Origin: an uncultured Acidobacteriota bacterium
Lineage (GTDB): Bacteria > Acidobacteriota > Vicinamibacteria > Vicinamibacterales > Fen-181
Reading direction: 5' to 3'
NCBI GenBank assembly: GCA_963784455.1
Contig: CAWARN010000029.1
Coordinates: forward strand, 45,834 to 109,833
Length of the DNA stretch: 64,000 nt
The translations under genes were made by a program, and so were the position numbers. The notes beneath the pieces are model-generated. The model did no database searches. It saw only the letters and a program-made list of their open reading frames with translations, and was not told the DNA's origin. Below, one piece after another: positions 29,477 to 64,000 of this stretch. Each line of letters opens with the position of its first letter. Within the stretch, counting starts at the first letter, position 1.

Positions 29477-31582
29477 CTACCGCACAGGCTTCTGCGATGT
29501 GAGCAGGTTTCTGATGGCGACGATCTCGTCGTGTACGTCAGGCCCGTCGACGTACGCGACACGACGTCCATCCGGATGTACTGCGAACCCCCAGGCACGA
29601 CCGCCACATCGCAGCCCCGTCGGTCGGGCCGGCCCGCCAGCGACCGGTACCCAGAGGAACTCCCCGTTGCCATCCGTTCCGGCGTCGATGAGCATCACGT
29701 GCCGGCCGTCGGCGCCCCATCCCACGCCCGACGACTTCGCGAACACCTCGCGAGCCTCGCCCCCTTCTGCCGAAATGACTTTCACCACTCCCTTGCCATT
29801 CGCCCGAGTCTCGCTGAAAGCAACCAGGCGATCGTCAGGCGACACGGCGATGGATGAAAGAGCGCGGGCCGGAGAGGTTGTGCGGTAGAGCTCGCGCTTC
29901 TGGCCAGTCTGAACGTCCTGTCGAATGAGGTGTAGCGTGAACCAGCCGCCGCTGTTCGCCGCATCGTCGTCGTCCACGGAGTAGTAGGCGCTCTTGCCAT
30001 CGTGCGACAGTCCGACGCTCGTTGCCGAGAGGTTGTCTCGTTTGAAGTCCAGCCCGGGGATCGACTCCTGGCGGCCGCTCGTCACGTCGATGCGCTTGTT
30101 GCCGACCAGCAGGGACTGCCCGCCGGGGAACCAGCCGGCCCTTGAGGGACTGAACTTGGTCGAAACCAGGTCGCGATCCTCCCCGGTCTTCAGGTCGTGC
30201 ACGACCAGCGTGGTGGTCTCCGAGTTCAGGATCGAGTTGTACGCCACCCACCGCCCGTCGAGGGACCACGAGACCGCCCCCGCCGCCATGCCAACGTGCG
30301 TCTGGTTGACCCGCTTCGGCTCGACGACCACCTTGCCTCCGCCCGGGTCGACCTCGGCCAGAAGGACATCCGCGGCGAAGACGGGCCGAAGGCCGTAGAG
30401 CGTTCCGTCGCGGGCGAAGCCGAGCAGCCCGAAGCTGTCGCCATCTGCCCTCACCTTCAGGCGCTCAGGTTCACCCTGTGGCTTGCCGTTCACCACCGCG
30501 ACGGCCCACACGGCGGCGACTCCGGACCGGGTGCTGAGAAAGACGATGCGTTTCCCGTCCGCCGTCCAGGCCGGGCTCCAATCTGCCTCGGACGCCGCGC
30601 CCTGCACGAGAGGAGCTTCGGTGTCTCCGGCGGCCGGCATGATGTGAAGAGTCCCCCTGTAGCCGAGGACGGGTTTGCCGTCGGCGCCCGTTCGCGCCGC
30701 GGGATGCACGATGTAACGGCCATCCGGCGAGAATCGCGGCTGACTAGAACCATCGTTGCCGGCGCCGACGCCACCGCCAGCCTTCAGGACCTTTACCGAT
30801 CCGTCGGCCACGGAGACGAGGACCATGTCCCAATCCGAATTCCCCCCCACCCTCTTCCACGTCCTGGCAAGGATGTACTTGCCGTCCGGCGACCAATCGT
30901 CGATCCGGTTGGCCGGTCCTTCTCCGCGCCAGATGGTCCGCATCGACCCGTCGCCGACCTGGATCACGCGGATTTCGGACCTTCCCGTGCCGTCAGCCAT
31001 CCACCCGCATGCGACCTGCCGTATGTCAGGCGCCACGACGACAGTCGCGCAGTTGGTGTTCTCCGCCACCGTCCGCTCCTGGCCCGTGGCGAGATCGAGC
31101 AGGTAAACCCGGAGGAGGTCCTTCATCGGAGCGGCGACCGCCACGAGGCGTCCGTCGGCCGTCACGCGGCTCACCCACGTGTAGTTGCTCGGCGGAAACG
31201 TCCACACGTGACGCTCGACCAGCCCGGTCTCGACCGGGGCGGCGGCACCGCGAGCGCCCAGGCGCTTGCGCGCCTCGGCGACGACGTCCTTCTGGTCGGG
31301 GAACTGCGCCACGATGCGTTCGTACGCCTTGCGCGACTCCGCGTCCCCGAGCCTCTCGTAGCACTGCCCCATGCGCAGCAACGCCTTGGCCGCCACGACG
31401 CGGTTGGAACTTGCCGCGAGCGGCTTGTACAGTTCGATCGCGGCTTTCAGATCGCCCTCGACCGTCTCCTTGTTGATGGCCGCCTGCAGCCTGGCTTCCG
31501 GGCTGGCATTCTGCTGCCTCGCCGCGAGCGGCAGCGTCGCGGCGACGGTCAGCGCCAGGATGAAGATCGCTCTCGTTCGCAT
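29477..31582 (-). CDS. Secreted TPR + TolB/PD40 beta-propeller protein (module 1)
   Basis: Signal peptide MRTRAIFILALTVAATLPLAA. TPR-like LQAAINKETVEGDLKAAIELY...ALLRMGQCYERLG. Many WSPDG/FSPDG/WTADG repeats. GGAGG RBS. Confidence 0.85.
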   Translation of the reverse strand: MRTRAIFILALTVAATLPLAARQQNASPEARLQAAINKETVEGDLKAAIELYKPLAASSNRVVAAKALLRMGQCYERLGDAESRKAYERIVAQFPDQKDVVAEARKRLGARGAAAPVETGLVERHVWTFPPSNYTWVSRVTADGRLVAVAAPMKDLLRVYLLDLATGQERTVAENTNCATVVVAPDIRQVACGWMADGTGRSEIRVIQVGDGSMRTIWRGEGPANRIDDWSPDGKYILARTWKRVGGNSDWDMVLVSVADGSVKVLKAGGGVGAGNDGSSQPRFSPDGRYIVHPAARTGADGKPVLGYRGTLHIMPAAGDTEAPLVQGAASEADWSPAWTADGKRIVFLSTRSGVAAVWAVAVVNGKPQGEPERLKVRADGDSFGLLGFARDGTLYGLRPVFAADVLLAEVDPGGGKVVVEPKRVNQTHVGMAAGAVSWSLDGRWVAYNSILNSETTTLVVHDLKTGEDRDLVSTKFSPSRAGWFPGGQSLLVGNKRIDVTSGRQESIPGLDFKRDNLSATSVGLSHDGKSAYYSVDDDDAANSGGWFTLHLIRQDVQTGQKRELYRTTSPARALSSIAVSPDDRLVAFSETRANGKGVVKVISAEGGEAREVFAKSSGVGWGADGRHVMLIDAGTDGNGEFLWVPVAGGPARPTGLRCGGRAWGFAVHPDGRRVAYVDGPDVHDEIVAIRNLLTSQKPVR

Positions 31583-31601
31583 CTCATTCACCTCCGCTAT
31601 C

Positions 31602-31655
31602 AAGATAGCGAGGGGATGTCTGGCGGCATTCGGCGCCCGGTCAGATCTCCGTCAG
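31602..31655 (-). promoter_or_regulatory. Putative OmpR-type tandem binding site and -10 element (module 1 propeller gene)
   Basis: Top-strand GTCAGATCT at 31640 and 31651 (11-bp period). TATCTT -10-like hexamer at 31602-31607. Confidence 0.7.
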
Positions 31656-31672
31656 ATCTTCCGAGCGGGCAA

Positions 31673-31691
31673 GGCTGAAGCCCCGCCCTAC
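31673..31691 (-). repeat. REP palindrome (partial)
   Basis: GGCTGAAGCCCCGCCCTAC is the reverse complement of GTAGGGCGGGGCTTCAGCC. Confidence 0.65.
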
Positions 31692-31702
31692 GGGGCGCTG
31701 CG

Positions 31703-32377
31703 CTACCCGTCGAACCTGTAGCCTAGCCCACGCACGCTGACGATGAAGCGCGGCGCTTGCGGATCGGCCTCGACCTTGCGGCGCAGGTTCATGACGTGGT
31801 TGTCGATCGCGCGATCCGTCGGGCCGCTGTCGGGGCGCCACACTTCGTCGAGCAGCCGTTCGCGCGTCAGGATCCGGCCTCGGCGGCGGACGAACGTCGA
31901 GAGCAGCTTGAATTCGAGCGCCGTCGTGTCGAGCGCCACGCCCGCGCGCCGGACCTCGGCCCGCGTGAAGTCCACCTCGACGTCGCCGAAGGCATACACC
32001 TCATGCTCGTCTGGCGCGGCCCGGCGGAGCATCGCCTTGACCCGCGCGCGCAGCTCCAGAGAACTGAACGGCTTGGTGACGTAGTCGTCTGCGCCAATCT
32101 CGAGGCCGAGCACCTTCTCCGCTTCGAGCGCCTTCGCGGTCAGCATCAGCACCGGCGTCCGCATCCCGGCCTGCCGCAGCTCGCGACAGACGGTGTAGCC
32201 GTCCTTGCCTGGCAGCATGATGTCGAGCAGCACGAGGTCGAACGCTCCGCTCCGCGCCCGCTCGGATCCGGCCACGCCGTCGCGCACGACCTCGACGTCG
32301 TATGCCTCGAGCGACAAGTCGTTCTTCAGACCGAGCGCGATGCCGGCATCGTCTTCGACAATGAGGATTCGTGGCAT
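31703..32377 (-). CDS. OmpR/PhoB-family response regulator (module 1)
   Basis: RILIVEDD, LLDIMLPG, LTA, GADDYVTKPF, LRRKVE..P, VRGLGYRF. Confidence 0.95.
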   Translation of the reverse strand: MPRILIVEDDAGIALGLKNDLSLEAYDVEVVRDGVAGSERARSGAFDLVLLDIMLPGKDGYTVCRELRQAGMRTPVLMLTAKALEAEKVLGLEIGADDYVTKPFSSLELRARVKAMLRRAAPDEHEVYAFGDVEVDFTRAEVRRAGVALDTTALEFKLLSTFVRRRGRILTRERLLDEVWRPDSGPTDRAIDNHVMNLRRKVEADPQAPRFIVSVRGLGYRFDG

Positions 32378-32378
32378 A

Positions 32379-34352
32379 TCAACCGATTGCAGGAAAGAGA
32401 AGCGTGAACGTGCTGCCTTCGCCAGCTGCGCTCTGGAGCCGGATCTCCCCGCCGTGCGCCGTCACGATGTGGCGCACCAGCGCGAGGCCGACTCCGGTAC
32501 CGACCACGCCGTCACGCTCGGCGGCACGGCCGCGCACGAACTTCTCGAAGATGCGGCCCTGTTCGGCGGCCGGGATCCCCAGGCCGCGGTCGCGCACGCG
32601 GATCGCCGAGAAGCCGTCGAGGCGGCTGACTTCGACAGAGACCGTCTTGCACTCGGGTGAGTACTTCACAGCGTTGTCGAGCAGGTTCCACACCGAGCAG
32701 GCCAGCGCCGATCGGTCAGCCCGGACGAGGGGCGTGTCGTTGTGGAACTCAGTGTCGACGACGAAGCCGCTGCCTTCAACGTCGCTTTGGAACTCGGCGG
32801 CCACGTCGCGGACAACCTCGACCGGATCGACCGTGTCGAACCGGTACTGCATGGCGCCGGCCTCCATCCGCCCGAAGTTAAGAAGCCCGTCGACCAGGCG
32901 GCGCAGGCGACGGCTCTCGCGGGCAAGGACGCCGTAGAACTCGGTGCGTTCGGCCTCGCCAGCGACGCGGCCGGCCTCGAGCATCTCCGACAGGTGGCAC
33001 AGCGACGACAGCGGCGTGCGGAACTCGTGCGAGACGGCGGCCACGAACTCCGACTGCAGGCGGCTCACCGCGAGTTCGCGGCTGACGGCCCGCCCGATCA
33101 GGTAGATGCCCGCGAGCAGCAGCACCGTGATCACGGCGAGCCCAGTCCCGAGCAGGCGCTGCCTGGAGCCTGACGAGTTCAGGTCGGCGCCGGGGTCGAT
33201 GGTCAGTGCGTGGAGATTCACCGGGAGCGAGGTGCTTGCGGCAAGTCGCACGGTCTGGAGCCGCGAATCTCCAACAGGGGGCCCGACGACGACGAAGCCG
33301 TCCGGTCCGGTGAGCGTGATGGCGACGCCCTGACCGGCCAGAATGGGACGGAGTTCAGCCTCGACCTGCGCGGCCAGCCATTTCGGACCGAGCAGCAGCG
33401 CCGCCTGACGCGTCGGCCCATTGCGGCGGAGGGCGACAGCCGCACGGTCGGCTTCGCGGACGACGGCGCGGTCACCATCGCCGGATGGCGACTCGTAGAT
33501 CACACCGACCATGGCCGCGAGTGCAAGTGCGCCGGGCGTGTCCGGCCATTGTCCGGGGCGCCCGAGGACCGCGAGCGCTTCGCCGGCGTGGAACTCGTAC
33601 AGGCCGCGAGTGAGCCGCCAGTGACGCTGGCGAATCCCATCCAAAAGCGCTTCGGCGGCCTTGCGTGCCGCATCGAGGTTGGCCTGGCGCGCGAGAACCG
33701 CCAGCCGCGCTCCGGCAGCGACGAGATTGGCCGGGAGCCCTTCGCCTTCGACCGGGGTACTGCCCAACGCGGCGAGTTCGTCGTACGCCGCGAGTGCCCG
33801 GTCCCACTCACTCTGCTTCCGATGGATCCGGGCGATGCGCATCAGGGCCGTGGCGCGAGCGACACGATCGGGGCCTCGCGCCACTCGGTCGAGCATGGTG
33901 AGCGCGGCGGCGTAGTCGGCGGTCCGTATTTCGAGGTCCGCAACCCTTTCGAGGTCGGCGTTCCCGGGCAGCGGCGGCTGCGCGACCGTCGGCAGGAACG
34001 GCAATCGGCCGGCCGGATAGGCGTCGACGGCCGGCCCCGCGAACACGACGAGCACGCTGTCGTCGGGGAGCGATGCGGCCACCGCTGTAGCATCGGGCCC
34101 GAGCTGCGGCGGCGAAGCCGTCGCGATATCCCCGAGGTGATCCTCGGCCTGCGCGAGCGCACGCCGCAACGCGGACACCGACAGGTCGGCCGCGCTCTCC
34201 CGCCGCTCCTGCATCCGTTGCGCCGCCAGTTCCCGGTCCTGCCGGGCCAGTTGCCACCCGAGCCACAGCAGCGCGCACACCAGCAGCACGCCCGTTGACA
34301 GGAACAGGACGAGCAGCCGCGAGGGCGAGTGGATCCGGAGTGTTCGGAAGAT
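32379..34352 (-). CDS. Sensor histidine kinase with periplasmic TPR-like sensor (module 1)
   Basis: Two TM segments, H-box AVSHEFRTPL, NLLDNAVKYS, DRGLGI, GTGVGLA. The frame is open to 34352 (ATC); the first canonical start is GTG at 34289. Confidence 0.92.
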   Translation of the reverse strand: MFRTLRIHSPSRLLVLFLSTGVLLVCALLWLGWQLARQDRELAAQRMQERRESAADLSVSALRRALAQAEDHLGDIATASPPQLGPDATAVAASLPDDSVLVVFAGPAVDAYPAGRLPFLPTVAQPPLPGNADLERVADLEIRTADYAAALTMLDRVARGPDRVARATALMRIARIHRKQSEWDRALAAYDELAALGSTPVEGEGLPANLVAAGARLAVLARQANLDAARKAAEALLDGIRQRHWRLTRGLYEFHAGEALAVLGRPGQWPDTPGALALAAMVGVIYESPSGDGDRAVVREADRAAVALRRNGPTRQAALLLGPKWLAAQVEAELRPILAGQGVAITLTGPDGFVVVGPPVGDSRLQTVRLAASTSLPVNLHALTIDPGADLNSSGSRQRLLGTGLAVITVLLLAGIYLIGRAVSRELAVSRLQSEFVAAVSHEFRTPLSSLCHLSEMLEAGRVAGEAERTEFYGVLARESRRLRRLVDGLLNFGRMEAGAMQYRFDTVDPVEVVRDVAAEFQSDVEGSGFVVDTEFHNDTPLVRADRSALACSVWNLLDNAVKYSPECKTVSVEVSRLDGFSAIRVRDRGLGIPAAEQGRIFEKFVRGRAAERDGVVGTGVGLALVRHIVTAHGGEIRLQSAAGEGSTFTLLFPAIG

Positions 34353-34358
34353 GCGGCG

Positions 34359-34412
34359 AGTATAGCGCGGCCCGGTCGGACCGCCGTCAGCCTTCTGTCA
34401 GAGATTGGTCAG
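34359..34412 (-). promoter_or_regulatory. Putative OmpR-type triple repeat and -10 (module 1 kinase)
   Basis: Top-strand GTCAG at 34386, 34397 and 34408. TATACT at 34359-34364. Confidence 0.7.
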
Positions 34413-35942: not shown

Positions 35943-36759
35943 GTCGTCTCCGTCCAGAACTGGCGAAGCAGGTTGCACGCGACGCGCAGGCGGTACTCGG
36001 CCGTCGATCGGATGTCGTCGATCGGTGCGATCTCGGTGACGAGCGTGGCCACAGCCTCGTCGATCGAACCGCCGCCGGCCAGCACCGCCTCGGTTCGCGG
36101 AACGCGAACGACCGTCGGCGCGACGCTGCCGAACGCGATGCGCGGGCGAGGTGCGCGCACGGCCGCGATGACGACCTTCGAGATCGCCTGCGCCGCCCGC
36201 GTGCCGACCTTGCGGAACCACTGCCCGCCAGGGACCGGCGGGATCTCGATCGCCGCGACAAGCTCGTCGGGCCGCATCACCGTCTTGCGGTAGCCGGTGT
36301 AGAAGCCGTTGAACGGCACCCGGCGCACGCCGCCCGCGCTCCGGAGCACCACGACCGCATCGACGGCGGCCAGCACCGGGAGGCTGTCACCGGCCGGCGA
36401 TCCATTGGCAACGTTGCCGCCGAGCGTGCCCCTGTTCTGGATCTGGACGGCGCCAATCTCGCGGGCCGCGGCGGCGAGCATCGGCACGCGCCTGCGGACA
36501 ACAGGCGACCGCATGATCTCGCTGAACGTCGTCAATGCCCCAATCGACACGGCCTCGTCATATATCGTGATGCCGCGAAGCGCGTCGAGATTCCAGAGAT
36601 TCAGATACCGAGAGCCCGGCGCCGAGCCCGCGTTGAAGAGGACGTAGATGTCCGTGCCGCCGGCGAGCGGCACGATGGGTTGCCGATCGCGAAGACGTCG
36701 AGCGCGTGCTTCAGCGACCGCGGCTCGACGAGCTCGAGGGTGGAGATGGCGGTTCTCAT
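35939..36759 (-). CDS. Xanthine dehydrogenase family FAD-binding (medium) subunit, frameshift near the 5' end
   Basis: PLAGGTD, IGALTT, QIQNRGTLGGNVANGSPAGD, PIDDIRSTAEYR. ATG 36759 overlaps the upstream stop. Confidence 0.9.
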
Positions 36760-37304: not shown

Positions 37305-37330
37305 AGGGAGTCTCCGATTTGGTTATCGTC

Positions 37331-37422
37331 GTCAGTGGCTAGTGGCTAGCGGCGAGTTGTCAGTGGCCGGTCCGTCGCGCGGGACTGACTGACCACTAGC
37401 CACTGACCACTGGTCACTACTG
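37331..37422. repeat. Inverted pair of heptamer arrays (CAGTGGY...RCCACTG)
   Basis: gtcagtggctagtggctag...cagtggcc facing actgaccactagccactgaccactgg; same design at 43714-43797. Confidence 0.75.
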
Positions 37423-37423
37423 T

Positions 37424-39545: not shown

Positions 39546-39574
39546 AGACAGGCTCAAGGCTCAGGGCTCAAGGC

Positions 39575-40960: not shown

Positions 40961-40996
40961 GGACGAGAGGATTATACTGACGCAGGGAGATCTTGC

Positions 40997-41052: not shown

Positions 41053-41093
41053 TCGTGCGATCCTTGCGATCGTGCGAGTTGGAAATCAGGCCG

Positions 41094-43797: not shown

Positions 43798-43813
43798 CAT
43801 CGTTGTCGCACCT

Positions 43814-44822: not shown

Positions 44823-46306
<1,484 letters not shown>

Positions 46307-48665: not shown

Positions 48666-48683
48666 ACCGACAGCCTGGCTCAG

Positions 48684-54989: not shown

Positions 54990-57054
54990 CTACTTGGCCT
55001 TGACGCCAGGCGCGGCAGCCGGCTTCGGCAGGAAGTTCTCCATCACCCAGACCTCCAGATTCAATTTGACATCGTCGATCGCCACGCGGCGGCCGTCTGG
55101 GTGCAGCCGGAGCGCTCCCGTCAACTGACCGGTGAAGGTCAGCCCGAGCGACTGCGGCTCGCCGCCCTCGGCTGCGACACGCCACAGTTGCCAGTGCCGG
55201 TCCCTGTAGGGAATCTGCGCCTCTCCTTTGACGCCTTTCAGAAAGGCGACGTAGCGGCCGTCGGGCGTCCACGACGGGATACCCCAGAAGGGAACATCCT
55301 CCTCGTCGACCCTGACCAACTGCCGGACCTCTCCCCCGGCGACCGGCATGGCGAGCAGCACCAGGGACTTGGCGTCCACCACCGCGAGCAACAGTCGCCG
55401 GCCATCGGGCGACGCCACGCCCACCTGGATGCGGCCAGGTCCGGGTTTCTCAGCGACGACCTTCTCCTGGCCGGACCTGAGATCGTAGGCCGCGAGGCCA
55501 CCACCCTTGGGGTAATAGACGGTGTTGCCATCAGGGGAGAACTCGAAGCGCTGAAAGCCGGTCCCGACCGGAAGCGGCATCAGCGAGGTGACCCGCCCCG
55601 TCTGGACATCGATGCGCACAAGGCTCTTGCCCTTCCCGGATTCGAATCCGGGAATCGCAACGGCCCTTCCATCCGGCGTCCAGCGGAGGCGAGCCCCCAT
55701 CTCTATCGTTTGCGCACCAACCTCGAACTCCCGCTCCTCGCCCGTATCGAGGGAGCGGACAATCACGGTTCGGTTCGGCTCGCGGATGAGCACGTACGCG
55801 AGGAAGCGTCCGTCGGGCGACCAGTCTGGAGCCCAGATGTTGCCGCGCGCAGATGCAGACTTCGGCGGCGAGACCACCTTCCCGCTGGCCGGATCGAGCT
55901 CTGCAACCCTGACACCCCATACGTTGTTGTTCACCAGGTAGTAGAAGGCCCCTGAACTGGTGAACCCCATGGGCTCGAAGCCCCAGTCCTTCTTGACGAA
56001 GATCGGTTCGCCCTGCGCCTTCCCGCCGGTCACCGCGATCAGCCACGCGTCGGCCGATCCTGACCGCTCGCTGGAGAACAGAATGTGCTTCCCGTCCGGC
56101 GCCCAGCCCAGGACGCTGTGGTTCGATCGATCCGGGATGAGCGGCGACTCAGTCCCCGTCTGGAGTTCGAACAGCGACATGCCCTCCGTGCGTCGACCAG
56201 GCGATGTACCGTCCGTCGGGCGAGAACACCCCACCTGGAGAGGGTCCTTTCCCGTCGCCTTCAGCAGCTTCGCCGAGCCGTCGGCGACGGTCACCAGCAT
56301 CATGTCGCGGGTCCCGTCGGCCTTCGCGAATTCGGTCAGCAGGTGCTTGCCGTCAGGCGACCATGCCAGCGGAATCAGGATGACGACTCCACTTCCGGAG
56401 ACTCCGAGGACCCGCGGTTTCGAACCGTCGAGGCCGACGACGCGCAGATTCGAACCCGCCACGGCGGCGCCAGGCGTACGCGACACTCTTGCCGTCGGGC
56501 GAGGGCGCGGAGTACTCCCCGCACTCCTCGGGCCCATTCAGGCTGCCCTCTTCGGTCAACCGCCGGTCCCGCCCGGTGGCGAGGTCGTGGATGGCGAGAT
56601 TCCAGCTCATGTCCGTGAACGAGATGAAGCGGCCGTCGGCCGACACCTTGTGCGCCACCCCTTTCGACACCCTCCTTACGGCCAGCGTCGAACTGCCCAC
56701 TGCGCCGGCGGTTCCCGCCAGCGCAGCCAGCCGCGCCCGCGCGTGGGCGGCGGCGTCACCCTGGTCGGCGTAATCGCGGATCACCTGTTCATACGCCTTG
56801 CGGGCGTCGGCTTGCCCAAGCTTCTCGTAGCAGCCGCCGAGTTGGACGAGCGCCTTGGCCCGAACGACCCTGTCGCTGGGGAAGCGCGTGATGATCGCGT
56901 TGTAGTCGCGAATCGCCGCCTGAAGATCGCCCTCGACGAACTCGCGATGCACGGCCGCCTTGAGCGCCACGTCAGCCGACGGCGCTTGCTGTGCGGTGAT
57001 GGCCGTTGTCAGGATCAGGATCGCCAGCAGGATGGAGAGGCGAATCTTCATCAT
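54990..57054 (-). CDS. Secreted TPR + TolB/PD40 propeller protein (module 2; frameshifted)
   Basis: Signal peptide MMKIRLSILLAILILTTAITA; LKAAVHREFVEGDLQAAI...ALVQLGGCYEKLG; WSPDG repeats; EVWVMENFLP. Confidence 0.85.
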
Positions 57055-57072
57055 CGAATCCTCCTGGCACCC

Positions 57073-57126
57073 AATGTAGCGGGCCACTGCTCCGGTGCGA
57101 TGGCCGTTCGGTCACCGTTCGGTCAC
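57073..57126 (-). promoter_or_regulatory. Putative OmpR-type tandem site and -10 (module 2 propeller gene)
   Basis: CCGTTCGGTCA x2 (GTCAC at 57111 and 57122). TACATT at 57073-57078. Confidence 0.7.
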
Positions 57127-57129
57127 GGG

Positions 57130-57808
57130 TCAGCCGTCAAATCGGTAGCCGAAGCCGCGGATGCTCAACACGAACGCCGGCTTCGACGGGTCCGCCTCGA
57201 TCTTCCTGCGCAGGCTGGTCACCTGGTTGTCGACGACGCGGTCGGTGACAAACGTGCCGGAGCCCCACGCCTCGTCGATGAGCTGCTGGCGGCTCATGGC
57301 CCGGCCGTGGTGGCGGACGAGCGCGGCGAGCAGCTTGAACTCGAGGGGGGTGAGCGGGACGACCTCGCCGCCGCGCCTCATCTCGCGCCGCCCCATGTCG
57401 ACCTCGCAGTCGCCGAATCGATACGTCCCGGGGTCATCGTCCGACGTTCGGCGCAGGACCGCCTTGATGCGGGCCCGCAGCTCCCGGGCGCTGTACGGTT
57501 TCGTCACGTAGTCGTCGGCGCCGAGTTCCAGACCGAGCACCTTCTCCGCTTCCTGAGTCCTCGCGGTCAGCATCACGATCGGCGTGCGGATGCCCGGCGC
57601 GCCGGATGTCGCGGCACACGTCGAATCCGTCCTTGCGCGGCAGCATGACGTCGAGCAGGATTGCGTCGAAGGCGCCCTCGATGGCCCGGCTGGTCCCTGT
57701 CTCGCCGTCAGCGACGACTTCCACGAGGTAGCCCTCGGATCTCAGGTCATCGTCGAGCGCCATCGCGATCCCGTCATCGTCCTCCACCACGAGAATGCGC
57801 TTCGTCAC
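57130..57808 (-). CDS. OmpR/PhoB-family response regulator (module 2; frameshift near 57590)
   Basis: RILVVEDD, LLDVMLP, GADDYVTKPY, LRRKIE, IRGFGYRFDG. Confidence 0.93.
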
Positions 57809-57835
57809 GACTGGCTCCTCCTGACGGACGTGCGG

Positions 57836-59848
57836 TCAGACTCCCTCCTGTTCCACGACGGGCAGCAGGATGGAGAACGTGCTGCCGCCGCTGGGTTCGC
57901 TCTCAATCTGGATGTCGCCATGGTGTGCCCGCACGATCTGCCGCGCCATCGCCAGCCCGACGCCGGTGCCCTTCACGGCGGAGTGACGCGCAGCGGCGCC
58001 GCGGACGAACTTCTGGAAGATCCGCCGCCGCTCGCCAGCCGGGACGCCCGGTCCGTGGTCTCGAACGCGCACGGCGACCCGCGATCCGGCGCGCTCCACC
58101 ACCACGCGAATCGGCGCGTCGTCTGGCGAGTACTTGGCTGCGTTGTCGAGCAGGTTCGAAAGCGCGTGGCTGAACGCGTCCGCATCGACTCGAATGGAGG
58201 GAAGCGTGTCGCCGGCCTCGATCTCGAGCGAGTGTCGCGCAGCCTCCGGCCGCGCGCGGAACTGCTCGACGATGCGCGAGACGACGAGAGCGGGGTCGGC
58301 CGGCTCCAGCGCGTACCGCTGGGCGCCGGCTTCGATGCGACCGAAGTCGAGCAGCGTCTCGACGAAGTGCTGGAGCCTCTCGGTCTCGCGTGCAAAGACC
58401 TCGTAGTACTGCTGCCTCCGCGCCTCGTCCACGGTACGGCCGGTCCTGAGCAACTCGGTCAGATGGCTCATCGACGTCAGCGGTGTGCGGAATTCGTGCG
58501 ACACGGCGGACACGAAATCGGCCTGGAGCCTGGCGACCGCCAGTTCCCTGTGCACGGCGCGAGCCACGACGAGGGTGCCGGCCACGACAAGAAAGCCGAG
58601 GAGCGCAAGACCGACCAGCAGCAATTGCCGGCGGCCGGCGAGGTCCGCCATGTCCAGGCGCGGATCGGCGCCAGTCACCCGAATCGCCCAGGGCAGCCGC
58701 GTATCCTGCGCCATTCTGACGGCGACCGGCCCCGCTGCGGGGGCGGTCGCATCCCCCAGGGCCCAATGACCCGCGCCGTCGATCAGCGCGAGCGCCGCTC
58801 GCCGATTCCGCCAGATGGTCTGCCAGTTCGCATTCAGGTAGCGGGATGAAGCGACCAGGACCATCGCTCGATCGGGCGCGCCGCGCCAGACCAGCAGCAC
58901 CGCCTCCCCGTCGATCCATGCGCTTCGCCATCCGCCCCAATTGGAATCAGCGCGCCCCGAGTCTCGCCACTCCGTCCACGCCAGTTCGACGGCAGCGGCG
59001 AGTGCGAGGCTCTCCCTTCTGCGTTCGAGGTCGTGGGCTACCCGTGATGGGCGGCCCAGTACCCGGTGCGCTTCCATGACCCGCCTCGGGCGCCGCCAGC
59101 CAGCGCTGCGCCCGCTCCCAGTGGAAGAAGAAGCCGGCGCGGTCGAGAGGCCACTGGCCGGCTTCGAGTGCGTTCGACAGAGCCGATGCCTCGCGTTCGA
59201 GTCCGACAATCGCTGCAGTTCGCCCAGAAGCGCGCACCGCTCCTGACGCGCCAGCAGATTGGCGGCCTCGCCACCGACCTGGACCGCACCAAGGGCCCCG
59301 AGTCGATCATAAGCATCGAGCGCTTCGTCGAGGCGGCGCAACTTGCGGAGGGTTCGAGCCAGCCGGACCAGGCTTCCGGCTCGCACGCGGGGATCGGGGG
59401 AGTTGGCGAGGCTCCTGTAGATGGCGCATGCGCGCTCCGGGTTCGCGTTCCGGAATTCCTCGATCTCGCCGGGGCGCCACTGGTCGCCGGGCGGATCGGC
59501 GTCGGCGATTGCGGTCGGAACCCACAGCAGCGGCGCCCCCGCGCGGCGCGACACGCCGCTGGCATCGAACGCCACGACCAACGCTCCGTCTCGGGCGAGC
59601 GCGCTTGGCGGAGAGGCGAGGAACGCCGGCAGGCGATCGCGGATCCCGTCGAGTTCGCGTACAACGTCGGAGGCGATCGCACTGGCCGCGCGCTCGATGC
59701 GCTCCTGGATTCGCTGTCGCTCGAGGTCGCGGTCCTGCTGAAGCAGTCGCGCTCCGAGCCAGACGAGGGCGACGCCAGGCACGAGCGTCGCTGCCAGGAA
59801 CAACGCCAGCAGATAGTGCGGCGGGCGAAGCCAGTTTCCGAACGGCAT
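57836..59848 (-). CDS. Sensor histidine kinase with periplasmic TPR-like sensor (module 2)
   Basis: Two TM segments; AVSHEFRTPL, NLLDNAAKYS, DHGPGV, GTGVGLA. Likely compensating indels near 59050-59200. Confidence 0.92.
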   Translation of the reverse strand: MPFGNWLRPPHYLLALFLAATLVPGVALVWLGARLLQQDRDLERQRIQERIERAASAIASDVVRELDGIRDRLPAFLASPPSALARDGALVVAFDASGVSRRAGAPLLWVPTAIADADPPGDQWRPGEIEEFRNANPERACAIYRSLANSPDPRVRAGSLVRLARTLRKLRRLDEALDAYDRLGALGAVQVGGEAANLLARQERCALLGELQRLSDSNARHRLCRTHSKPASGLSTAPASSSTGSGRSAGWRRPRRVMEAHRVLGRPSRVAHDLERRRESLALAAAVELAWTEWRDSGRADSNWGGWRSAWIDGEAVLLVWRGAPDRAMVLVASSRYLNANWQTIWRNRRAALALIDGAGHWALGDATAPAAGPVAVRMAQDTRLPWAIRVTGADPRLDMADLAGRRQLLLVGLALLGFLVVAGTLVVARAVHRELAVARLQADFVSAVSHEFRTPLTSMSHLTELLRTGRTVDEARRQQYYEVFARETERLQHFVETLLDFGRIEAGAQRYALEPADPALVVSRIVEQFRARPEAARHSLEIEAGDTLPSIRVDADAFSHALSNLLDNAAKYSPDDAPIRVVVERAGSRVAVRVRDHGPGVPAGERRRIFQKFVRGAAARHSAVKGTGVGLAMARQIVRAHHGDIQIESEPSGGSTFSILLPVVEQEGV

Positions 59849-59890: not shown

Positions 59891-59955
59891 AGATTGCTGG
59901 CGTCGACTCCTCGGTTTCGGGCAGTTGTGTCAGGAAACGGTCACGGTGCGGTCAT
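59891..59955 (-). promoter_or_regulatory. Putative OmpR-type triple repeat and -10 (module 2 kinase)
   Basis: GTCAG 59929, GTCAC 59940, GTCAT 59951. CAATCT at 59891-59896. Confidence 0.65.
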
Positions 59956-59972: not shown

Positions 59973-62091
59973 TTACTTCGTCTTCGCTCCGCCCGCCGCG
60001 CCAGCCTTCGGCAGGAAGTTCTCCATCACCCAGACCTCCAGGTCCACTTTGACATCGCTGATCGCCACCCGGCGGCCGTCGGGGTGCAGCCGCAACTCAA
60101 TCACGGTCCCTCCGACAATGGTCAGCCCCAGCCGCTGCGGTTCTCCGCCCTCGGCTGCGACACGCCACAGCTCCCATGGCCCTTTCTGTTTCTTGACGCG
60201 CTTCAGATAGACGACGGACTTGCCGTCAGGCGTCCACGACGGCGAGCCCGGGAACGGGACTTCCTGCTCGCCATCGACACTGGCCACCTCCCGGGCCTGT
60301 CCCCCGGCAGCCGGCATGACGAGCAGCACCTGACGCTTGCCGTCGGAGGTGGCGATCAGCAGTCGCTGGCCATCGGGCGACACCACGCCCGCAAAGAGGC
60401 CTGGCTTCTGGACGATTTGCGTCTCTTGGCCGGATCGCACATCGCGGGACACGAAGCGAGCCCCGTTACTGTAGAAGATGCTGTTGCCATCGTGAGAAAA
60501 GTCGAAGCCCTGCCAGTTCATAGCCGGAAAAGGCATCAGCGAAGTCACCTGCCCCGTTTGGACATCAATCCGGATCAGGTACGCGTCCTTTCCGGCTTCC
60601 GACGCCTGCACCACGACGGCCTTCCCGTCTGGCGTCCAGCGGAGGCCACCCCATTTGACTGTCCTCTCACCGACCCGAAGCTCCCGCTCCTCGCCAGAAT
60701 CCATGGAACGGATGATCACAGCCTGGCCGCTGGAGACACCGACCGCGAGCGAGCGTCCGTCGGGAGACCAGTCTGGAGCCCGCGTATTGCCGTGTCGAAA
60801 TGCAGACTGCGGCGGCGAGACCACCTTGCCGCTGGCCTGGTCGAGTTCTGCGATCCGAACATCGAAGACGCTGTTGTTGACCCCGTAGTAGAAGGCACCT
60901 GAGCGGGTGAACCCCATAGGCTGGGAGCCGCGGGTGAACGCCATGGGCCTGGAGCCCAAGTTCTGCTTGACGAACATCGGTTCGCCCTGGGCCTTCCCAT
61001 CGGCCACCGCGATCGAGCCACGCATCGGCCGAGCCCGAACGCTCACTGGAGAACAGGATGTGTCTGCCGTCTGGAGCCCAGCCCAGGACGCTGTGGTTCG
61101 ACCGATCCGGGATGAGAGGCGACTCGGTTCCGGTCGCGGAGTTCGAACAACGAGATCCCCTCCTTGGTCGCCCAGGCGATGTACCGTCCGTCAGGCGAGA
61201 ACACCCCACCTGGAGTCCGGTCATTTCCCAGCGCTCTCAGCAGCGTCGTCGAGCCGTCAGCGACGGCCACCAGCATCATGTCGCGGGTGTTGTCGGCCTT
61301 CACGAACTCGGCGAGCAGGTGCCTGCCGTCGGGCGACCATGCCAGTGGAATGTGGCCTCTGACACCGTCTCCGGCGGCCTGCAGGACCCGGGGCTTCGAG
61401 CCATCGAGCCCGACGACGCACAGGTCGGACGCGCCACCCGACGAGTTGACCCAGGCGTAGGCGACGGCTCTTGCTGTCGGGCGAGGGCACGGAGGGTTCG
61501 GCGAACCACCCGCTCTCCGCAAAGTCGGCCGTGTTGGTCAACAGCCGGTTCTGGCCCGTGGCGAGGTCGCGGATGGCGAGATTGCCATTCGCATCCCAGT
61601 CGGTGAACGACAGGAAACGGCCGTCGGGCGTCACCTTTCCCGTCACCTCCGCTCCCGCCCATACCCGCCTCACGGCCAGCGTCGAACCGCCCGCTTCGCC
61701 GGCGGTTCCCGCCAGCGCAGCCAGCCGCGCCCGCGCGTGTGCCAGGGCATCTTGCTGGTCGCCGTACTGCGGCGACGATCCGTTCGTACGCCTTCCGCGC
61801 TTCCGCCGCCTGCGCGGCGCCGAGCTTCTCGTAGCACTGGCCAAGTCCGACAAGTGCGCGCGCGGCCACCGGCCGGTTGGTGCCGTAGCGTGCCAGGACG
61901 TCGCGGTAGATCGCGACCGCCTCGTCCAGCTTGCCTTCGACGACGTGCTTTGCGCGCGCGGCCTGCAGCAGCGCCTCTGCCTGATCGGCCTTCTGCGCGA
62001 AGATGGCGGTCGACGCGGCGACAAGCGCCACCGCGCCCAGCGCCACCACCGCCACTCCCCACCAACTCTTCGGGCCTCTTGTCTTCCGCAT
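59973..62091 (-). CDS. Secreted TPR + TolB/PD40 propeller protein (module 3; frameshifted)
   Basis: Signal peptide; LQAARAKHVVEGKLDEAV...ALVGLGQCYEKLG; WSPDG repeats; EVWVMENFLP. Confidence 0.85.
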
Positions 62092-62110
62092 CGTCGCTAC
62101 CTCCAGGCCC

Positions 62111-62164
62111 ATGGTCTCGCCTGCCCGTCGGGAACCGATGGCATCGGTGTCAGGTTCGTGTGAG
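62111..62164 (-). promoter_or_regulatory. Putative OmpR-type tandem site and -10 (module 3 propeller gene)
   Basis: GTCAG 62149 and GTGAG 62160. GACCAT at 62111-62116. Confidence 0.55.
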
Positions 62165-62177
62165 ACCTGAGGCCTCG

Positions 62178-62853
62178 CTACCCGTCGAAGCGGTACCCGG
62201 CGCCCCGCACGCTGACGACGTATCGCGGCACGGCCGGATCGGGCTCGATCTTCCGGCGCAAGTTGACGATGTGCGTGTCGACGGCGCGGTCGGTGACGAA
62301 CACGCCGTGGCCCCAGACCTCGTTCAGCAACTGCTCGCGCGAGAGCACCCGGCCGCGATGCCCGATGAAGGCCGACAGCAGCTTGAATTCGATCGTCGTC
62401 ACCTCGAGCGGGACGCCGCCTGCACCGCAGTTCGCGCCGGCCGAAGTCCACCTCCACCTGGCCGAATCGATAGATCTCCGGCGTCTCCACCGCAGCGCGC
62501 CGCAGTGCGGCCTTGACCCGTGCGCGAAGTTCGCGCGCGCCGAAGGGCTTGGTGACGTAGTCGTCGGCGCCAATCTCGAGGCCCATCACCTTGTCGGATT
62601 CCTGGGTCTTCGCCGTGAGCATGATGATGGGCATGCGCAGGCCGGCGCCTCGCACCGTGCGGCACACCTCGAAGCCGTCCTTGCCAGGCAGCATCACGTC
62701 GAGGATGGCGAGGTCGAAGCGGCCCGACGTGAGGGCGGCGATGGCCGCCTCGCCGTCGCTGACGATGTCGACCTCGTGGCCTTCGAGCGCGAGATCGTCG
62801 CGCAGCAGCGTGGCGATCGACAGCTCATCTTCGACAATCAGGATCCGCGGCAT
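62178..62853 (-). CDS. OmpR/PhoB-family response regulator (module 3; frameshift near 62425)
   Basis: MPRILIVEDE, ILDVMLPG, GADDYVTKPF, LRRKIEPDP, VRGAGYRFDG. Confidence 0.93.
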
Positions 62854-64000
62854 CGGGATCTCCAAGAGGGAAGCGTGATGGTGAACGTGCTGCCGTCGCC
62901 CGGCGTGCTCTCCACGCGCACGTGCCCGCCGTGGGCGCTCACGATGTGCCGCACCATCGCGAGCCCGAGGCCCGTGCCTTTCGCGCCGACGGCGGCCGCG
63001 TTGGCGCCTCGGGCGAACTTGTCGAAGATGCGGCGCTGGTCATCCGGCGACACCCCGACGCCACGATCCCGCACGGCGATCGCGACGGACGTCGCCGGTG
63101 ATCGCCGTTGTCAGCCACACGGTCTTGTTCGATGGCGAGTACTTGACCGCGTTGTCGAGGAGGTTCCAGATCGCCCGCCCAAGCGCCTCGCGATCGGCCG
63201 AGACCCAGGCGTCTTCGGACCGGAGCGTCGTTTCCACCCGATAGCCCGCCGCTGCCACGCCTGCCGAGAACTCCCCGGTCAACGCCCGCACGAGCGCCGT
63301 GACGTCCACCGGCTCGAGGCGGTACTCCAGCGCGCCCGACTCCATGCGGCCGAAGTCCAGCAGCGATTCGACCAGGCGCTGCAACCGCTGGCCATCGCGC
63401 TGCTGCATCCGGTAGTACTCCCCGCGACGCGGCTCAGGCACCCGTCCCTCGACCAGCGCATCGCTCACTTGCCGCATCGACGTGAGTGGGGTCCGGAACT
63501 CGTGCGACACGGCGGCGACGAAGTCGGTCTGCAGCCGCGAGACCTCCAGTTCGCGATTGACCGCGCGTACGACGAAAGTCCCGCCGGCCAGAACGAACAA
63601 ACCGAGAGTGACCAGGCCGGCGAGGACCACCAGCCGGCGCGACTGGCGGGCCGCAGCCTCCGCGCCGGGGTCGGCATCGACGACGCGGATCGACCAGGGG
63701 AGGCCGCTGTCGGCGGCCGCGCGCTGCGCCTGACGGGCGCTGCCCGCCGGCGCGTTTCCGCCGATCGCGCGGCCCGCGCCCGGCGGGCGGCTGTCGGCGT
63801 CGTCGAGGATAAGCCGCGCGCGAGAGCGGGTGAGCGCTGCGCGGGCGGGCTCGGCCAGGCGCGCGTCGACAAAGCGAGGCCCTGCGGCCAGTGCGGCCCC
63901 GCGACGGGCTGCGGTGCGCCACGCGACCAGCACGGCAGCGCCGTCGGCGGCGACCAGCCTGCTGACGCCCGCGGATGTCGCGGTGGTGCGGGCGGTTTCC
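62838..64000 (-). CDS. Sensor histidine kinase (module 3; 5' end outside the window, frameshifted)
   Basis: TM2, AVSHEFRTPL, NLLDNAVKYS, DRGVGV, GTGLGLA. Confidence 0.9.

What the first reader, a model, noticed from the sequence alone, without database searches (positions are those of the whole stretch)
29477..64000. Repeated three-gene signalling module: TPR-sensor kinase + OmpR regulator + secreted TPR/TolB-propeller protein (three copies plus a remnant)
Seen: the same order HK -> RR -> secreted ~700-aa protein occurs at 29477-34352, 54990-59848 and 59973->64000 (the last two in tandem). A fourth propeller tail remnant lies at 28459-28571. The secreted proteins share an N-terminal TPR-like cap (L.AA....VEG.L..A...Y...ALx.xGxCYE.LG...RKAYE) followed by PD40 blades, and no catalytic domain is recognisable. 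Established: OmpR/HisKA pairs often control an adjacent periplasmic accessory protein (e.g. CpxP with CpxAR). Inference: this is an expanded, paralogous family of three-component envelope-sensing systems in which the propeller is the ligand-binding or feedback partner. I do not recognise it as a characterised system.
Basis: partly seen in the sequence, partly recalled or inferred. Interest (0 to 1): 0.75.

Follow-up and report, generated by a model that had tools for sequence, protein, structure and literature searches.

The report
Kinase-regulator modules driving swappable propeller proteins
This soil-type acidobacterium carries ten copies of an undescribed three-gene unit in which a membrane sensor kinase and its regulator appear to switch on a neighbouring exported double-propeller protein whose propeller part is repeatedly exchanged between units.

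Summary
The repeated order kinase, regulator, exported TPR-capped propeller is real at all three places (minus strand). Copy 1 is intact. Copies 2 and 3 are broken by frame changes, which also hit unrelated genes nearby and so are probably assembly errors. The remnant is weak (E 0.17).

The genome holds ten such modules. In related Acidobacteriota, 81 of 86 judgeable propeller genes lie directly behind the regulator gene.

- **Regulation:** 11-bp phased direct repeats (nTGACa) beside a -10 box stand before both the kinase gene and the propeller gene. This suggests autoregulation, with the propeller as the regulator's direct target.
- **No co-variation:** kinase sensor, kinase core and regulator co-vary (r 0.82-0.87). 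The propellers do not (r 0.3-0.45).
- **Swapping:** 7 of 18 near-identical kinase/regulator pairs carry unrelated propellers, with the left joint in the middle of the cap.

A fixed signalling chassis with an exchangeable propeller payload fits better. Feedback through the cap remains open.

I found no description in print. This scan noted the same system twice before on other DNA.

The parts
34359..34412 (-). Promoter of module 1: four 11-bp phased direct repeats (C/T-GAC core, first bases at 34411, 34400, 34389, 34378) followed by -10 TATACT (34364-34359)
   Evidence: Read from the sequence. The same architecture is enriched upstream of HK genes in related loci.
32379..34352 (-). HK1, sensor histidine kinase. 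It has TM1, a periplasmic sensor of about 350 aa (a TPR array at residues 111-266 set in a Cache-like fold), TM2, HisKA and HATPase_c. The listed GTG start is at 34289; homologs align up to the ATC at 34352.
   Evidence: Pfam, translation, alignment A2, model with pLDDT 92.1, Foldseek TPR and dCache-type hits.
31703..32377 (-). RR1, OmpR/PhoB-family response regulator (REC + winged helix). There is a 1-nt gap to the HK1 stop.
   Evidence: Pfam. All NCBIfam equivalogs score below their cut-offs.
31602..31654 (-). RR1-PROP1 spacer promoter: phased boxes (TGACG 31654, TGACC 31643, AGACA 31621) and -10 TATCTT (31607-31602), then GGAGG and ATG 31582
   Evidence: Period-11 repeats are enriched in RR-PROP spacers of related loci.
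29477..31582 (-). PROP1, an exported protein of 701 aa. In the numbering of the 708-aa ORF it has a signal peptide, a TPR cap (residues 33-119, window 31247-31507), propeller 1 (129-400, window 30404-31219) and propeller 2 (402-700, window 29504-30400).
   Evidence: Pfam PD40/TPR_6, TolB-like at 77 bits against a cut-off of 343, model with pLDDT 82.8, best Foldseek hit tricorn protease 1k32, TolB best by sequence in the PDB.
28462..28571 (-). Possible remnant of a PROP C-terminal tail, ending at a stop
   Evidence: Motif-level resemblance. Tail HMM E 0.17, not significant.
59928..59954 (-). Phased TGAC boxes upstream of HK2 (first bases 59954, 59943, 59932)
57836..59848 (-). HK2, 670 aa, one open frame
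57130..57799 (-). RR2, read in two frames (one frame change near 57576-57593)
57073..57132 (-). RR2-PROP2 spacer: three TGACC boxes (57132, 57125, 57114; the last two are 11 bp apart) and -10-like TACATT (57078-57073)
54990..57087 (-). PROP2, read in two frames (the change lies within 56353-56537)
59973..62091 (-). PROP3, in five frame segments (four frame changes). Its propellers are 55-58% identical to PROP2, and 82% over 67 aa.
62181..62853 (-). RR3, read in two frames
62865..64000 (-). HK3, C-terminal 380 aa inside the window, with one frame change near 63092-63118. The gene continues to contig position C29:110642.

Best explanation
Each module is a self-contained, positively autoregulated two-component circuit. 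Its dedicated direct target is the gene next to it, which encodes a Sec-exported, non-catalytic protein made of a short TPR cap and two TolB/tricorn-like beta-propellers.

Proposed sequence of events:
1. The kinase senses an envelope signal with a periplasmic domain built from a TPR array set into a Cache-like fold.
2. It phosphorylates the OmpR/PhoB-type regulator.
3. The regulator binds three or four 11-bp phased direct repeats (core nTGACa, in some modules nCACa). These lie just upstream of a -10 hexamer, in place of a -35 box.
4. The repeats occur in front of the kinase gene and again in the 55-105-nt spacer in front of the propeller gene, so the signal raises both the circuit and the propeller protein.

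The constant unit is promoter, kinase, regulator, second promoter, signal peptide and the first half of the cap (to about residue 65). The rest of the cap and both propellers form a cassette that recombination exchanges between modules. The propellers are therefore an interchangeable binding payload, not a partner matched to the kinase sensor.

Shown here: gene order, folds, repeats, their 11-bp period, lack of co-variation, and mosaic DNA.
Inferred: that the regulator binds the repeats, that the protein is periplasmic, and that it binds rather than catalyses.
Open: whether the cap feeds back on the kinase, as CpxP or ExoR do on theirs.
For: Gene order:
- RR lies directly upstream on the same strand for 81 of 86 judgeable cap-bearing PROP hits in 74 loci.
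- Of the other five, 3 lie behind another PROP, 1 has RR 1.8 kb away, and 1 is a TPR match inside an HK gene.
- HK was found for 74 of 76. The 2 misses have HK in pieces or further upstream.
- The median distance from RR stop to PROP start is 66 nt.

Even sample of the phylum, 44 places:
- 33 have RR adjacent.
- 3 have RR near but separated or degraded: L094 has an HK/RR stump, L092 has a transposase between, and L118 has RR 3 kb away.
- 3 have no HK-RR (L099, L111, L114).
- 4 are not PROP. 1 could not be judged.

Promoter boxes:
- A strict two-box pattern at 11 bp occurs in 17 of 67 PROP upstream regions and 14 of 52 HK upstream regions. It occurs in 5 of 1290 coding controls, and in 6 of 1340 and 9 of 1040 shuffles.
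- 7-mers repeated at 6 of 7 or better at period 11 occur in 37% (PROP) and 50% (HK) of upstream regions. The figures are 10% in coding controls and 3-9% at periods 10 and 12, with an echo at period 22.
- Boxes plus -10 elements are readable in the window's own modules.
- In the 11 modules with clear repeats in both promoters, the box type is mostly the same in both, including the rarer CCTCAC type in 2 of them.

No catalytic domain.

Swapping:
- Co-variation: r is 0.82-0.87 among sensor, core and RR, and 0.30-0.45 between these and the propellers.
- 7 of 18 close HK/RR pairs carry propellers at 26-42% identity. L006 and L020 share propellers at 97-98% identity with sensors at 34%.
- DNA identity switches from over 90% to about 45% inside the cap. 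In the reciprocal pair it runs at 99-100% from PROP nt 440 to nt 1930.
- In swapped pairs, cap residues 33-65 stay at 84% identity while residues 66-118 fall to the family mean of 62%.
- Two of the incongruent loci (L005, L012) are contigs of 131 kb and 4.4 Mb.
Against: - No experiment and no RNA data exist. No RNA run holds the stretch, so transcription starts, co-transcription and regulator binding are all inferred.
- The strict box pattern is seen in only a quarter of promoters, and the looser period-11 signal in 37-50%. The rest may have degenerate boxes or none.
- Box consensus is similar across paralogs, so which regulator acts on which promoter is unknown.
- Being a target does not exclude also being a co-sensor. 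The kinase sensor carries a TPR array, which is typically a protein-binding module, and the cap half that stays with the kinase could be its docking piece.
- The mosaic pattern rests on metagenome-assembled contigs. Assembler switches at the conserved cap cannot be fully excluded for short-read contigs.
- Only 48 complete modules were compared, out of 74 with all three genes.
- A circuit whose only visible output is a non-enzymatic protein is unusual. Distant regulon members were not searched.
Confidence: 0.55

Rival explanations
1. Three-component co-sensor. The exported protein binds the stimulus with its propellers and docks on the kinase's periplasmic TPR array through its cap, switching the kinase. 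This is how LpqB acts on MtrB, and how periplasmic binding proteins act on TorS, LuxQ or VirA. In this reading, swapping propellers changes the input specificity of a fixed signalling chassis.
For: - Linkage to HK-RR is strict, close to one-to-one.
- The kinase sensor holds a confident TPR array.
- The cap is the best conserved part of PROP: 58% mean pairwise identity against 33-39% for the propellers.
- The first cap half (residues 33-65) always stays with its kinase when the rest is exchanged.
- No other target gene is consistently adjacent.
- Precedents seen in passages: LpqB-MtrB and ExoR-ChvG.
Against: - There is no co-variation of sensor with cap or propellers beyond shared descent (partial r 0.07-0.13).
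- The cap is too conserved across paralogs to explain pairing specificity among ten modules in one cell.
- The joint falls in the most conserved DNA of the gene, as homologous recombination alone would give.
- The RR-type boxes in front of PROP are explained more simply if PROP is an output.
Confidence: 0.25
2. Copies 2 and 3 are decaying pseudogenes, not assembly artefacts. On this view the array is a graveyard of duplicated modules, of which only some (copy 1, the C24 module and others) still work.
For: - Copy 3 has six frame changes in about 4.8 kb and copy 2 has two, while copy 1 has none.
- The junctions are not in long homopolymers.
- Modules on C25 and C5 are also broken.
- A possible tail remnant lies behind PROP1.
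Against: - Unrelated genes in the same window are split in the same way.
- 3 of about 20 unrelated kinase cores elsewhere in the genome are split. This points to a genome-wide indel rate typical of an unpolished assembly.
- The broken copies keep family-level identity along their whole length, with no in-frame stops reported inside the aligned segments.
- The genome is a 70% complete draft.
Confidence: 0.25
3. The linkage is only structural. The propeller gene hitch-hikes with kinase-regulator pairs through tandem duplication and has no functional tie to them.
For: Modules often stand in tandem arrays, so co-duplication alone would keep the genes together for a while.
Against: - The order is kept across at least five named lineages of Acidobacteriota, and in single-copy genomes.
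- The order survives repeated replacement of the propeller body.
- The same box type stands before both genes.
Confidence: 0.05

Closest known systems
CpxA/CpxR with CpxP, and BaeS/BaeR with Spy (Enterobacteria; recalled, not read here)
   Same: An OmpR-family two-component system whose strongly induced direct target is a small exported non-enzymatic periplasmic protein. CpxP also feeds back on its kinase.
   Different: - CpxP and Spy are small helical proteins and are not TPR-propeller proteins. No Pfam hit to them was found in PROP1.
- cpxP is transcribed divergently, and there is one system per genome.
- Here there are up to ten paralogous modules with exchangeable payloads.
ExoR-ExoS(ChvG)/ChvI of Rhizobiales (abstract and passages of PMC3460628)
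   Same: A signal-peptide-bearing TPR/Sel1-like periplasmic protein binds and represses the sensor kinase. Its own gene is regulated through the same system.
   Different: - ExoR is a repeat-only protein without propellers.
- It is encoded apart from the kinase genes.
- No cassette exchange is known for it.
- Binding of the cap to the kinase is untested here.
MtrA-MtrB-LpqB three-component system of Actinobacteria (passages of PMC2732212 and PMC12757749)
   Same: An OmpR-type regulator, a kinase and an exported beta-propeller-containing protein are encoded side by side and nearly always together. LpqB is reported to bind the extracellular domain of MtrB.
   Different: - LpqB is a lipoprotein with GerMN plus a GMAD1 propeller.
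- The gene order is RR-HK-LpqB.
- It is single-copy and conserved, not swapped.
- PROP1 has no lipobox and no GerMN hit.
- RR1 scores 204.6 bits against a cut-off of 300 for MtrA.
Pho-box promoters of PhoB (recalled)
   Same: Tandem 11-bp direct repeats replace the -35 element about 10 bp upstream of the -10 hexamer. They are bound head-to-tail by an OmpR/PhoB-family regulator, with autoregulation of the operon.
   Different: - The box sequence here is nTGACa.
- RR1 is not PhoB (193.3 bits against a cut-off of 296.2).
- Binding has not been tested.
TolB and CpoB(YbgF) of the Tol-Pal system; N-terminal propellers of tricorn protease
   Same: - Propeller 1 is most similar by sequence to TolB (PDB E 1.6e-25; TIGR02800 E 1.2e-21).
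- The cap resembles the CpoB TPR (TIGR02795 E 4.9e-4).
- The tandem propeller pair is most similar by fold to tricorn protease (1k32, E 1.3e-18).
   Different: - All scores are far below the family cut-offs.
- There is no tricorn catalytic or PDZ part.
- The genes are not in a tol-pal cluster.

Membership tests
OmpR/PhoB-family response regulators | Receiver domain followed by a Trans_reg_C winged-helix domain | tested here: met
   PF00072 E 2.5e-26 and PF00486 E 9.4e-24 in RR1.
Named OmpR-family equivalogs (MtrA, PhoB, CreB, BaeR, CpxR and others) | Score above the curated NCBIfam cut-off | tested here: not met
   Best hits are MtrA at 204.6 bits against 300 and PhoB at 193.3 against 296.2. 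All 25 listed are below their cut-offs.
HisKA-type sensor histidine kinases | HisKA phospho-acceptor domain plus HATPase_c, with two transmembrane segments flanking a periplasmic sensor | tested here: met
   PF00512 and PF02518 in HK1 and HK2. Helices 2-57 and 366-419 bracket the sensor in the model. Membrane topology is inferred.
TolB (TIGR02800) | Full-length match above the cut-off, including the N-terminal TolA-binding domain | tested here: not met
   77.1 bits against a cut-off of 343.15, and only propeller positions 235-418 of the profile are matched.
CpoB/YbgF (TIGR02795) | Match above the cut-off | tested here: not met
   20.7 bits against 90.1.
LpqB of the MtrAB-LpqB system | Lipoprotein with GerMN domain(s) fused to the GMAD1 propeller | tested here: not met
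   PROP1 has no GerMN or Gmad1 hit at E <= 0.01. The signal peptide has no cysteine. PF10647 is listed for only 2 of the 120 listed homologs.
Accessory-protein-dependent ('three-component') kinases in general | Physical contact between the exported protein and the kinase's periplasmic domain | not testable with these tools
   No binding assay is available here. Co-variation of sensor with cap or propellers is absent, which argues against a matched interface but not against a generic one.
S9 prolyl oligopeptidase / DPP-IV / tricorn peptidases | Catalytic alpha/beta-hydrolase or tricorn core behind the propellers | tested here: not met
   Only the propeller parts match (PF02897, PF00930, 1k32). 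The protein ends with propeller 2.
PhoB-type class II activation (pho-box-like promoters) | Two or more 11-bp phased direct repeats abutting a -10 hexamer, bound by the regulator | tested here: inconclusive
   The repeats, their period and their position are shown. Binding by the regulator cannot be tested here.

The most novel reading that the evidence does not exclude
The modules form a repertoire-type envelope surveillance system. A fixed kinase-regulator chassis is kept with the first cap helices as its private adaptor. Recombination plugs different double-propeller heads into this chassis. The heads would recognise or neutralise variable outside agents, for instance bacteriocin or phage proteins that exploit TolB and the Tol-Pal machinery. 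A cell lineage could then re-aim ten inducible sensors or decoys without re-evolving the signalling part.
Probability: 0.12. Interest if true: 0.85.

Novelty: new variant of a known kind. Interest (0 to 1): 0.65.

Why it matters
Two-component systems with a co-encoded exported partner are known from a few single-copy cases (Cpx, ExoR, MtrAB-LpqB). This family differs in several ways:

- **Size.** The cap profile finds 5281 clusters at 50% identity with E up to 1e-10 among 1.84 billion representatives.
- **No annotation.** It carries no name beyond 'Tol biopolymer transport system component' or 'hypothetical'.
- **Testable design.** It has a readable promoter code and a clear line between a fixed signalling part and an exchangeable exported part.

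If the reading holds, the family offers two things. One is a natural system for studying how bacteria rewire the output (or input) of signalling circuits by cassette exchange. The other is a lead on what abundant, mostly uncultured soil and sediment Acidobacteriota sense at their envelope.

The box motif would also allow regulon prediction for dozens of paralogous regulators.

Tried and rejected
- **Complex prediction.** HK1 sensor (residues 40-368, alignment A2) was folded with PROP1 (35-703, alignment A1). The result was no verdict: scores 0.25 and 0.19 against a mark of 0.32, and controls were not run. It counts neither for nor against binding.
- **Sequencing runs.** No RNA holder is listed. 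Seven DNA runs hold only 5-7% of the sampled words.
- **rpoB as a frameshift yardstick.** No match was found in this 70% complete genome. Split unrelated genes in the window were used instead.
- **Homopolymer explanation for the frame changes.** The junctions are not in runs of five or more.
- **Remnant.** tblastn at E 10 found nothing convincing. The tail HMM gave E 0.17.
- **Consistent neighbours as regulon members.** A Pfam scan of 80 flanking ORFs from about 45 loci (80 of 237 candidates were scanned) showed no universal neighbour. The only recurrent one is a MauG-like di-haem peroxidase in a subset.
- **Alternative regulators.** An earlier scan note reported sigma/anti-sigma or BlaR1/BlaI partners beside PROP. 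None was recognised in my even sample. The three PROP genes without HK-RR have unannotated neighbours.
- **Literature.** Five searches and passages of PMC3174227 gave no description of the triad. Supplements were not opened.
- **ESM Atlas.** The clusters nearest to the kinase sensor are all 'hypothetical protein' with no common Pfam family.
- **Cys81.** I considered the invariant Cys81 of the cap as a redox or disulfide site. I set this aside because it sits at a buried TPR packing position, and the nearest kinase cysteine column is not conserved.

Full report
**What is in the window**

- **Copy 1 is intact.** HK1 is 32379-34289, RR1 is 31703-32377 (1 nt after the HK stop) and PROP1 is 29477-31603.
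- **Domain content.** Pfam gives HisKA+HATPase_c for the kinases, REC+Trans_reg_C for RR1, and PD40 repeats plus a TPR_6 motif for the PROP proteins. No catalytic domain is found.
- **No named family.** NCBIfam places none of them in a named equivalog. RR1 scores best for MtrA and PhoB but below both cut-offs. PROP1 matches only the propeller part of TolB (77 bits against 343) and faintly the CpoB/YbgF TPR.
- **Copy 2.** HK2 is whole. RR2 and PROP2 each change frame once.
- **Copy 3.** PROP3 changes frame four times, and RR3 and HK3 once each. HK3 runs beyond the window end.

Unrelated genes in the window are split in the same way (a molybdopterin-binding subunit and a Ser/Thr kinase-PD40 gene). 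So are 3 of about 20 unrelated kinase cores elsewhere in the genome. The genome is a 70% complete draft. I therefore read the frame changes as probable assembly indels. The junctions are not in long homopolymers and I could not check reads, so pseudogenes remain possible.

The remnant at 28462-28571 looks like the family's C-terminal tail but is not significant (E 0.17).

**Gene starts**

- The public gene call for PROP1 has 701 aa (P0001). This fits ATG 31582 behind a GGAGG, rather than the TTG at 31603.
That codon lies 6 nt after a TATACT hexamer.
- Several relatives have ATG 9-11 nt after TATAAT, which looks like a leaderless or near-leaderless arrangement.

**Extent in the genome**

tblastn with the three copy-1 proteins finds ten modules:
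- seven on C29, of which four lie upstream of the window, including one HK-RR-PROP-PROP followed by HK-RR;
- one each on C24, C25 and C5.

A profile of the cap alone (A3) finds ten matches in this genome, all in those PROP genes.

**Folds**

- **PROP1** (alignment A1, pLDDT 82.8) has a signal peptide, five cap helices (residues 35-119) and about 51 strands forming two propellers (129-400 and 402-700).
  - Foldseek's best match is tricorn protease (1k32, E 1.3e-18), followed by other tandem-propeller proteins.
  - By sequence the closest solved protein is TolB (E 1.6e-25).
- **The HK1 sensor** (alignment A2, pLDDT 92.1) has a long N-terminal helix, two short strands, eight helices forming a TPR array (111-266), an alpha/beta sheet (274-363) and the second membrane helix.
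  - Foldseek matches kinesin-light-chain-type TPR domains.
  - More weakly, it matches the ligand-binding domains of CqsR and Htc10. I read these from recall as dCache-type, so 'Cache-like' is tentative.
  - No Pfam family covers this sensor, and the nearest Atlas clusters are unnamed.

**Is the triad conserved?**

A search with PROP1 gave 1741 proteins at E up to 1e-10 among 8000 scored candidates. Their only names are 'Tol biopolymer transport system component', 'sugar lactone lactonase YvrE' (one case) or 'hypothetical'.

A scan of one genome per species returned 74 loci. These are the best 80 of 194 confirmed stretches. Nearly all are Acidobacteriota by record title, including Bryobacterales, Aminicenantes, Vicinamibacterales and Terriglobia.

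In these loci there are 97 PROP hits that include the cap, and 86 have at least 900 nt upstream:
- 81 have an RR gene directly upstream on the same strand;
- 3 lie behind another PROP;
- 1 has RR 1.8 kb away;
- 1 is a TPR match inside an HK gene.

Of 76 with enough further sequence, 74 have HK. The other two have it in pieces or further upstream.

That sample was chosen by likeness to PROP1, so I also used an even sample. Here 27 of 301 Acidobacteriota genomes (25 of 186 genera) match the cap profile at E up to 1e-8. The window's genome has the most matches (10), followed by 7, 5, 5 and 3. I fetched all 44 places outside G000, one place on the same contig as another being covered by it:
- 33 have RR adjacent;
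- L094 has an HK/RR stump;
- L092 has a transposase between RR and PROP;
- L118 has RR 3 kb away;
- L099, L111 and L114 have no HK-RR within reach;
- L110, L112, L115 and L117 are not PROP (BamD-like or other TPR proteins);
- L108 ends at its contig end.

**Promoter signals**

Upstream of HK genes, and again in the short RR-PROP spacer (median 66 nt from RR stop to PROP start), I saw three or four direct repeats with an nTGACa core. They are spaced exactly 11 bp apart and end about 10 nt before a TAnnnT hexamer. In the spacer, a GGAGG and the start codon follow.

The window's own modules show the pattern:
- before HK1, four boxes and TATACT (34412-34359);
- before PROP1, boxes and TATCTT (31654-31602);
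- before HK2;
- before PROP2, three TGACC boxes and TACATT;
- in other modules of the genome.

Statistical controls:
- A strict two-box pattern occurs in 17 of 67 PROP-upstream and 14 of 52 HK-upstream regions. It occurs in 5 of 1290 coding controls, and in 6 of 1340 and 9 of 1040 shuffles.
- A motif-free test counts 7-mers repeated at 6 of 7 or better. At a distance of 11 these occur in 37% and 50% of the two region sets, against 10% of coding controls. At distances of 10 or 12 the figures are only 3-9%. There is an echo at 22.
- Among 52 modules, 11 have clear repeats in both promoters. In these the box type is mostly the same in both, including the rarer CCTCAC type in L009 and L023. Those two are each other's nearest relatives, so this is not independent evidence.

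From recall, this is the layout of pho-box promoters bound by PhoB. I infer that each RR activates both its own operon and PROP. Nothing here shows binding.

**Co-variation and exchange**

For 48 modules with all three genes complete (47 of the 74 with HK, RR and PROP in the loci, plus copy 1), I compared pairwise identities per domain.

- **Mean identities.** RR receiver 70%, RR DNA-binding 62%, HK core 55%, HK sensor 35%, cap 58%, propeller 1 39%, propeller 2 33%.
- **Correlations.** Sensor, core and RR co-vary (r 0.82-0.87). The two propellers co-vary with each other (0.81). The propellers against HK/RR give only 0.30-0.45. Partial correlations of sensor with propellers or cap, given RR and core, are 0.07-0.13.
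- **Nearest neighbours.** The nearest neighbour by RR+core is also nearest by sensor in 33 of 48 modules, but nearest by propellers in only 8 of 48.
- **Swapped pairs.** Of 18 pairs with RR+core at least 85% identical, 7 have propellers at 26-42%, the family background. Conversely, L006_6001 and L020_6001 have propellers 97-98% identical but sensors at 34% and RR at 64%.
- **DNA level.** Three such pairs stay above 90% identity from about 150 nt upstream of HK to 80-190 nt into PROP, then fall to about 45%. The reciprocal pair is at paralog level through HK and RR, rises inside the cap, is 99-100% identical from about nt 440 to nt 1930 of PROP, and fades over the last 100 nt.
- **Position of the joint.** Across the 7 swapped pairs, cap residues 33-65 keep 84% identity (unswapped close pairs 85%, all pairs 52%). 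Residues 66-118 drop to 62% (unswapped 86%, all pairs 62%). The tail goes with the propellers (42% against 78%).

The left joint therefore lies near residue 65. This is just before the most conserved stretch of the gene, where homologous recombination would be expected. The right joint is at or just past the gene's end.

Two of the incongruent loci (L005, L012) are contigs of 131 kb and 4.4 Mb. This makes short-read chimeras an unlikely general cause, but the caveat stands for other pairs.

In the window itself, PROP2 and PROP3 are 55-58% identical in the propellers (82% over 67 aa) while their sensors are 37% identical. This fits, but does not prove, exchange between neighbours.

**Relation to earlier notes of this scan**

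The scan found this system before on other DNA.
- Note e1-5112314 described tandem modules with swappable propellers. I tested that claim on my own loci and it held. This changed my reading from co-sensor towards payload.
- Note e1-4917421 reported the same TPR-propeller proteins beside sigma/anti-sigma or BlaR1/BlaI pairs. I did not see such pairs in my sample, so that remains unchecked here.

**Mechanism and rivals**

The best-supported reading is an autoregulated kinase-regulator circuit with PROP as its dedicated target. The first half of the cap belongs to the constant part, and the rest of the protein is an exchangeable binding payload.

The co-sensor reading is not excluded. The sensor's TPR array, the conserved cap, and the fact that cap residues 33-65 stay with the kinase all fit a docking model. 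In CpxP (recalled) and ExoR, target and feedback partner are the same protein. The complex prediction gave no verdict and counts for neither side.

What PROP binds is unknown. TolB-like and tricorn-like propellers are protein- or peptide-binding scaffolds (established knowledge), and no catalytic residues or domains are evident.

**Comparison with known systems**

The closest analogues by function:
- CpxAR-CpxP and BaeSR-Spy (recalled);
- ExoR-ExoS/ChvI (abstract and passages of PMC3460628);
- MtrAB-LpqB (abstract and passages of PMC2732212, one passage of PMC12757749).

None is a family match; the membership table gives the details. Five literature searches and passages of the Solibacter paralog paper (PMC3174227) gave no description of this triad. 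That paper mentions winged-helix two-component regulators only as a paralog group.

The cap profile finds 13,570 cluster representatives at E up to 0.001, 5281 at up to 1e-10 and 220 at up to 1e-30 among 1.84 billion. Of the best 150, 137 are single matches near the N-terminus, and 12 are long multi-TPR proteins that do not belong to the family.

**Verdict**

This is a new variant of a known kind: a two-component system with a co-encoded exported protein. It has two features I found described nowhere, namely the phased-box double promoter and the exchange of the propeller body at a joint inside the cap.

Noticed in passing
L013, L023, L025, L036, L037, L038, L040, L042, L045, L049, L050, L055, L056, L059, L063, L064, L074 (directly after PROP): A di-haem cytochrome c peroxidase / MauG-like gene (PF03150) follows PROP on the same strand in about 17 of 74 related loci, making a four-gene unit. 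None stands beside the ten modules of the window's genome; the only hit there is 28% identical, on C7. It could be an extra output, or an enzyme acting on PROP.
   Followed up: partly
L015, L026, L028, L039, L053, between RR and PROP: These Terriglobia loci carry a stump ORF behind the RR gene, before the complete PROP. The stump has a signal peptide and the first cap helices, and its own TGACA boxes. It looks like a footprint of cassette replacement. The window's tail-like remnant at 28462-28571 could be the 3' counterpart.
   Followed up: partly
window 50030-52236 (+): A Ser/Thr protein kinase with a C-terminal PD40 propeller is split over three reading frames. It is a second kind of propeller-linked signalling gene in the same window.
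   Followed up: no
window 34422-49871: Between copies 1 and 2 lies a cluster of amidohydrolases, xanthine-dehydrogenase-family subunits (FAD, 2Fe-2S, molybdopterin), PLP enzymes and a carbamoyltransferase-like gene, apparently for purine or pyrimidine breakdown. One molybdopterin subunit (37424-39560, minus strand) is split over three frames.
   Followed up: no
window 34350-34367 and loci L003, L005, L029, L065: The HK genes seem to start within about 6-11 nt of the -10 hexamer, a leaderless-like arrangement. In HK1 the aligned start codon reads ATC, which may be an assembly error or a non-canonical start.
   Followed up: partly
G000:C29:417-20074 (upstream of the window): Four more modules stand on the same contig. 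One has two PROP genes in a row, followed by an HK-RR pair that has no PROP of its own downstream.
   Followed up: partly
window 26109-26555 (-) and 27333-28436 (+): A PIN-domain gene and an unannotated ORF lie just downstream of the possible remnant. They may mark an insertion that cut off a second PROP gene.
   Followed up: no
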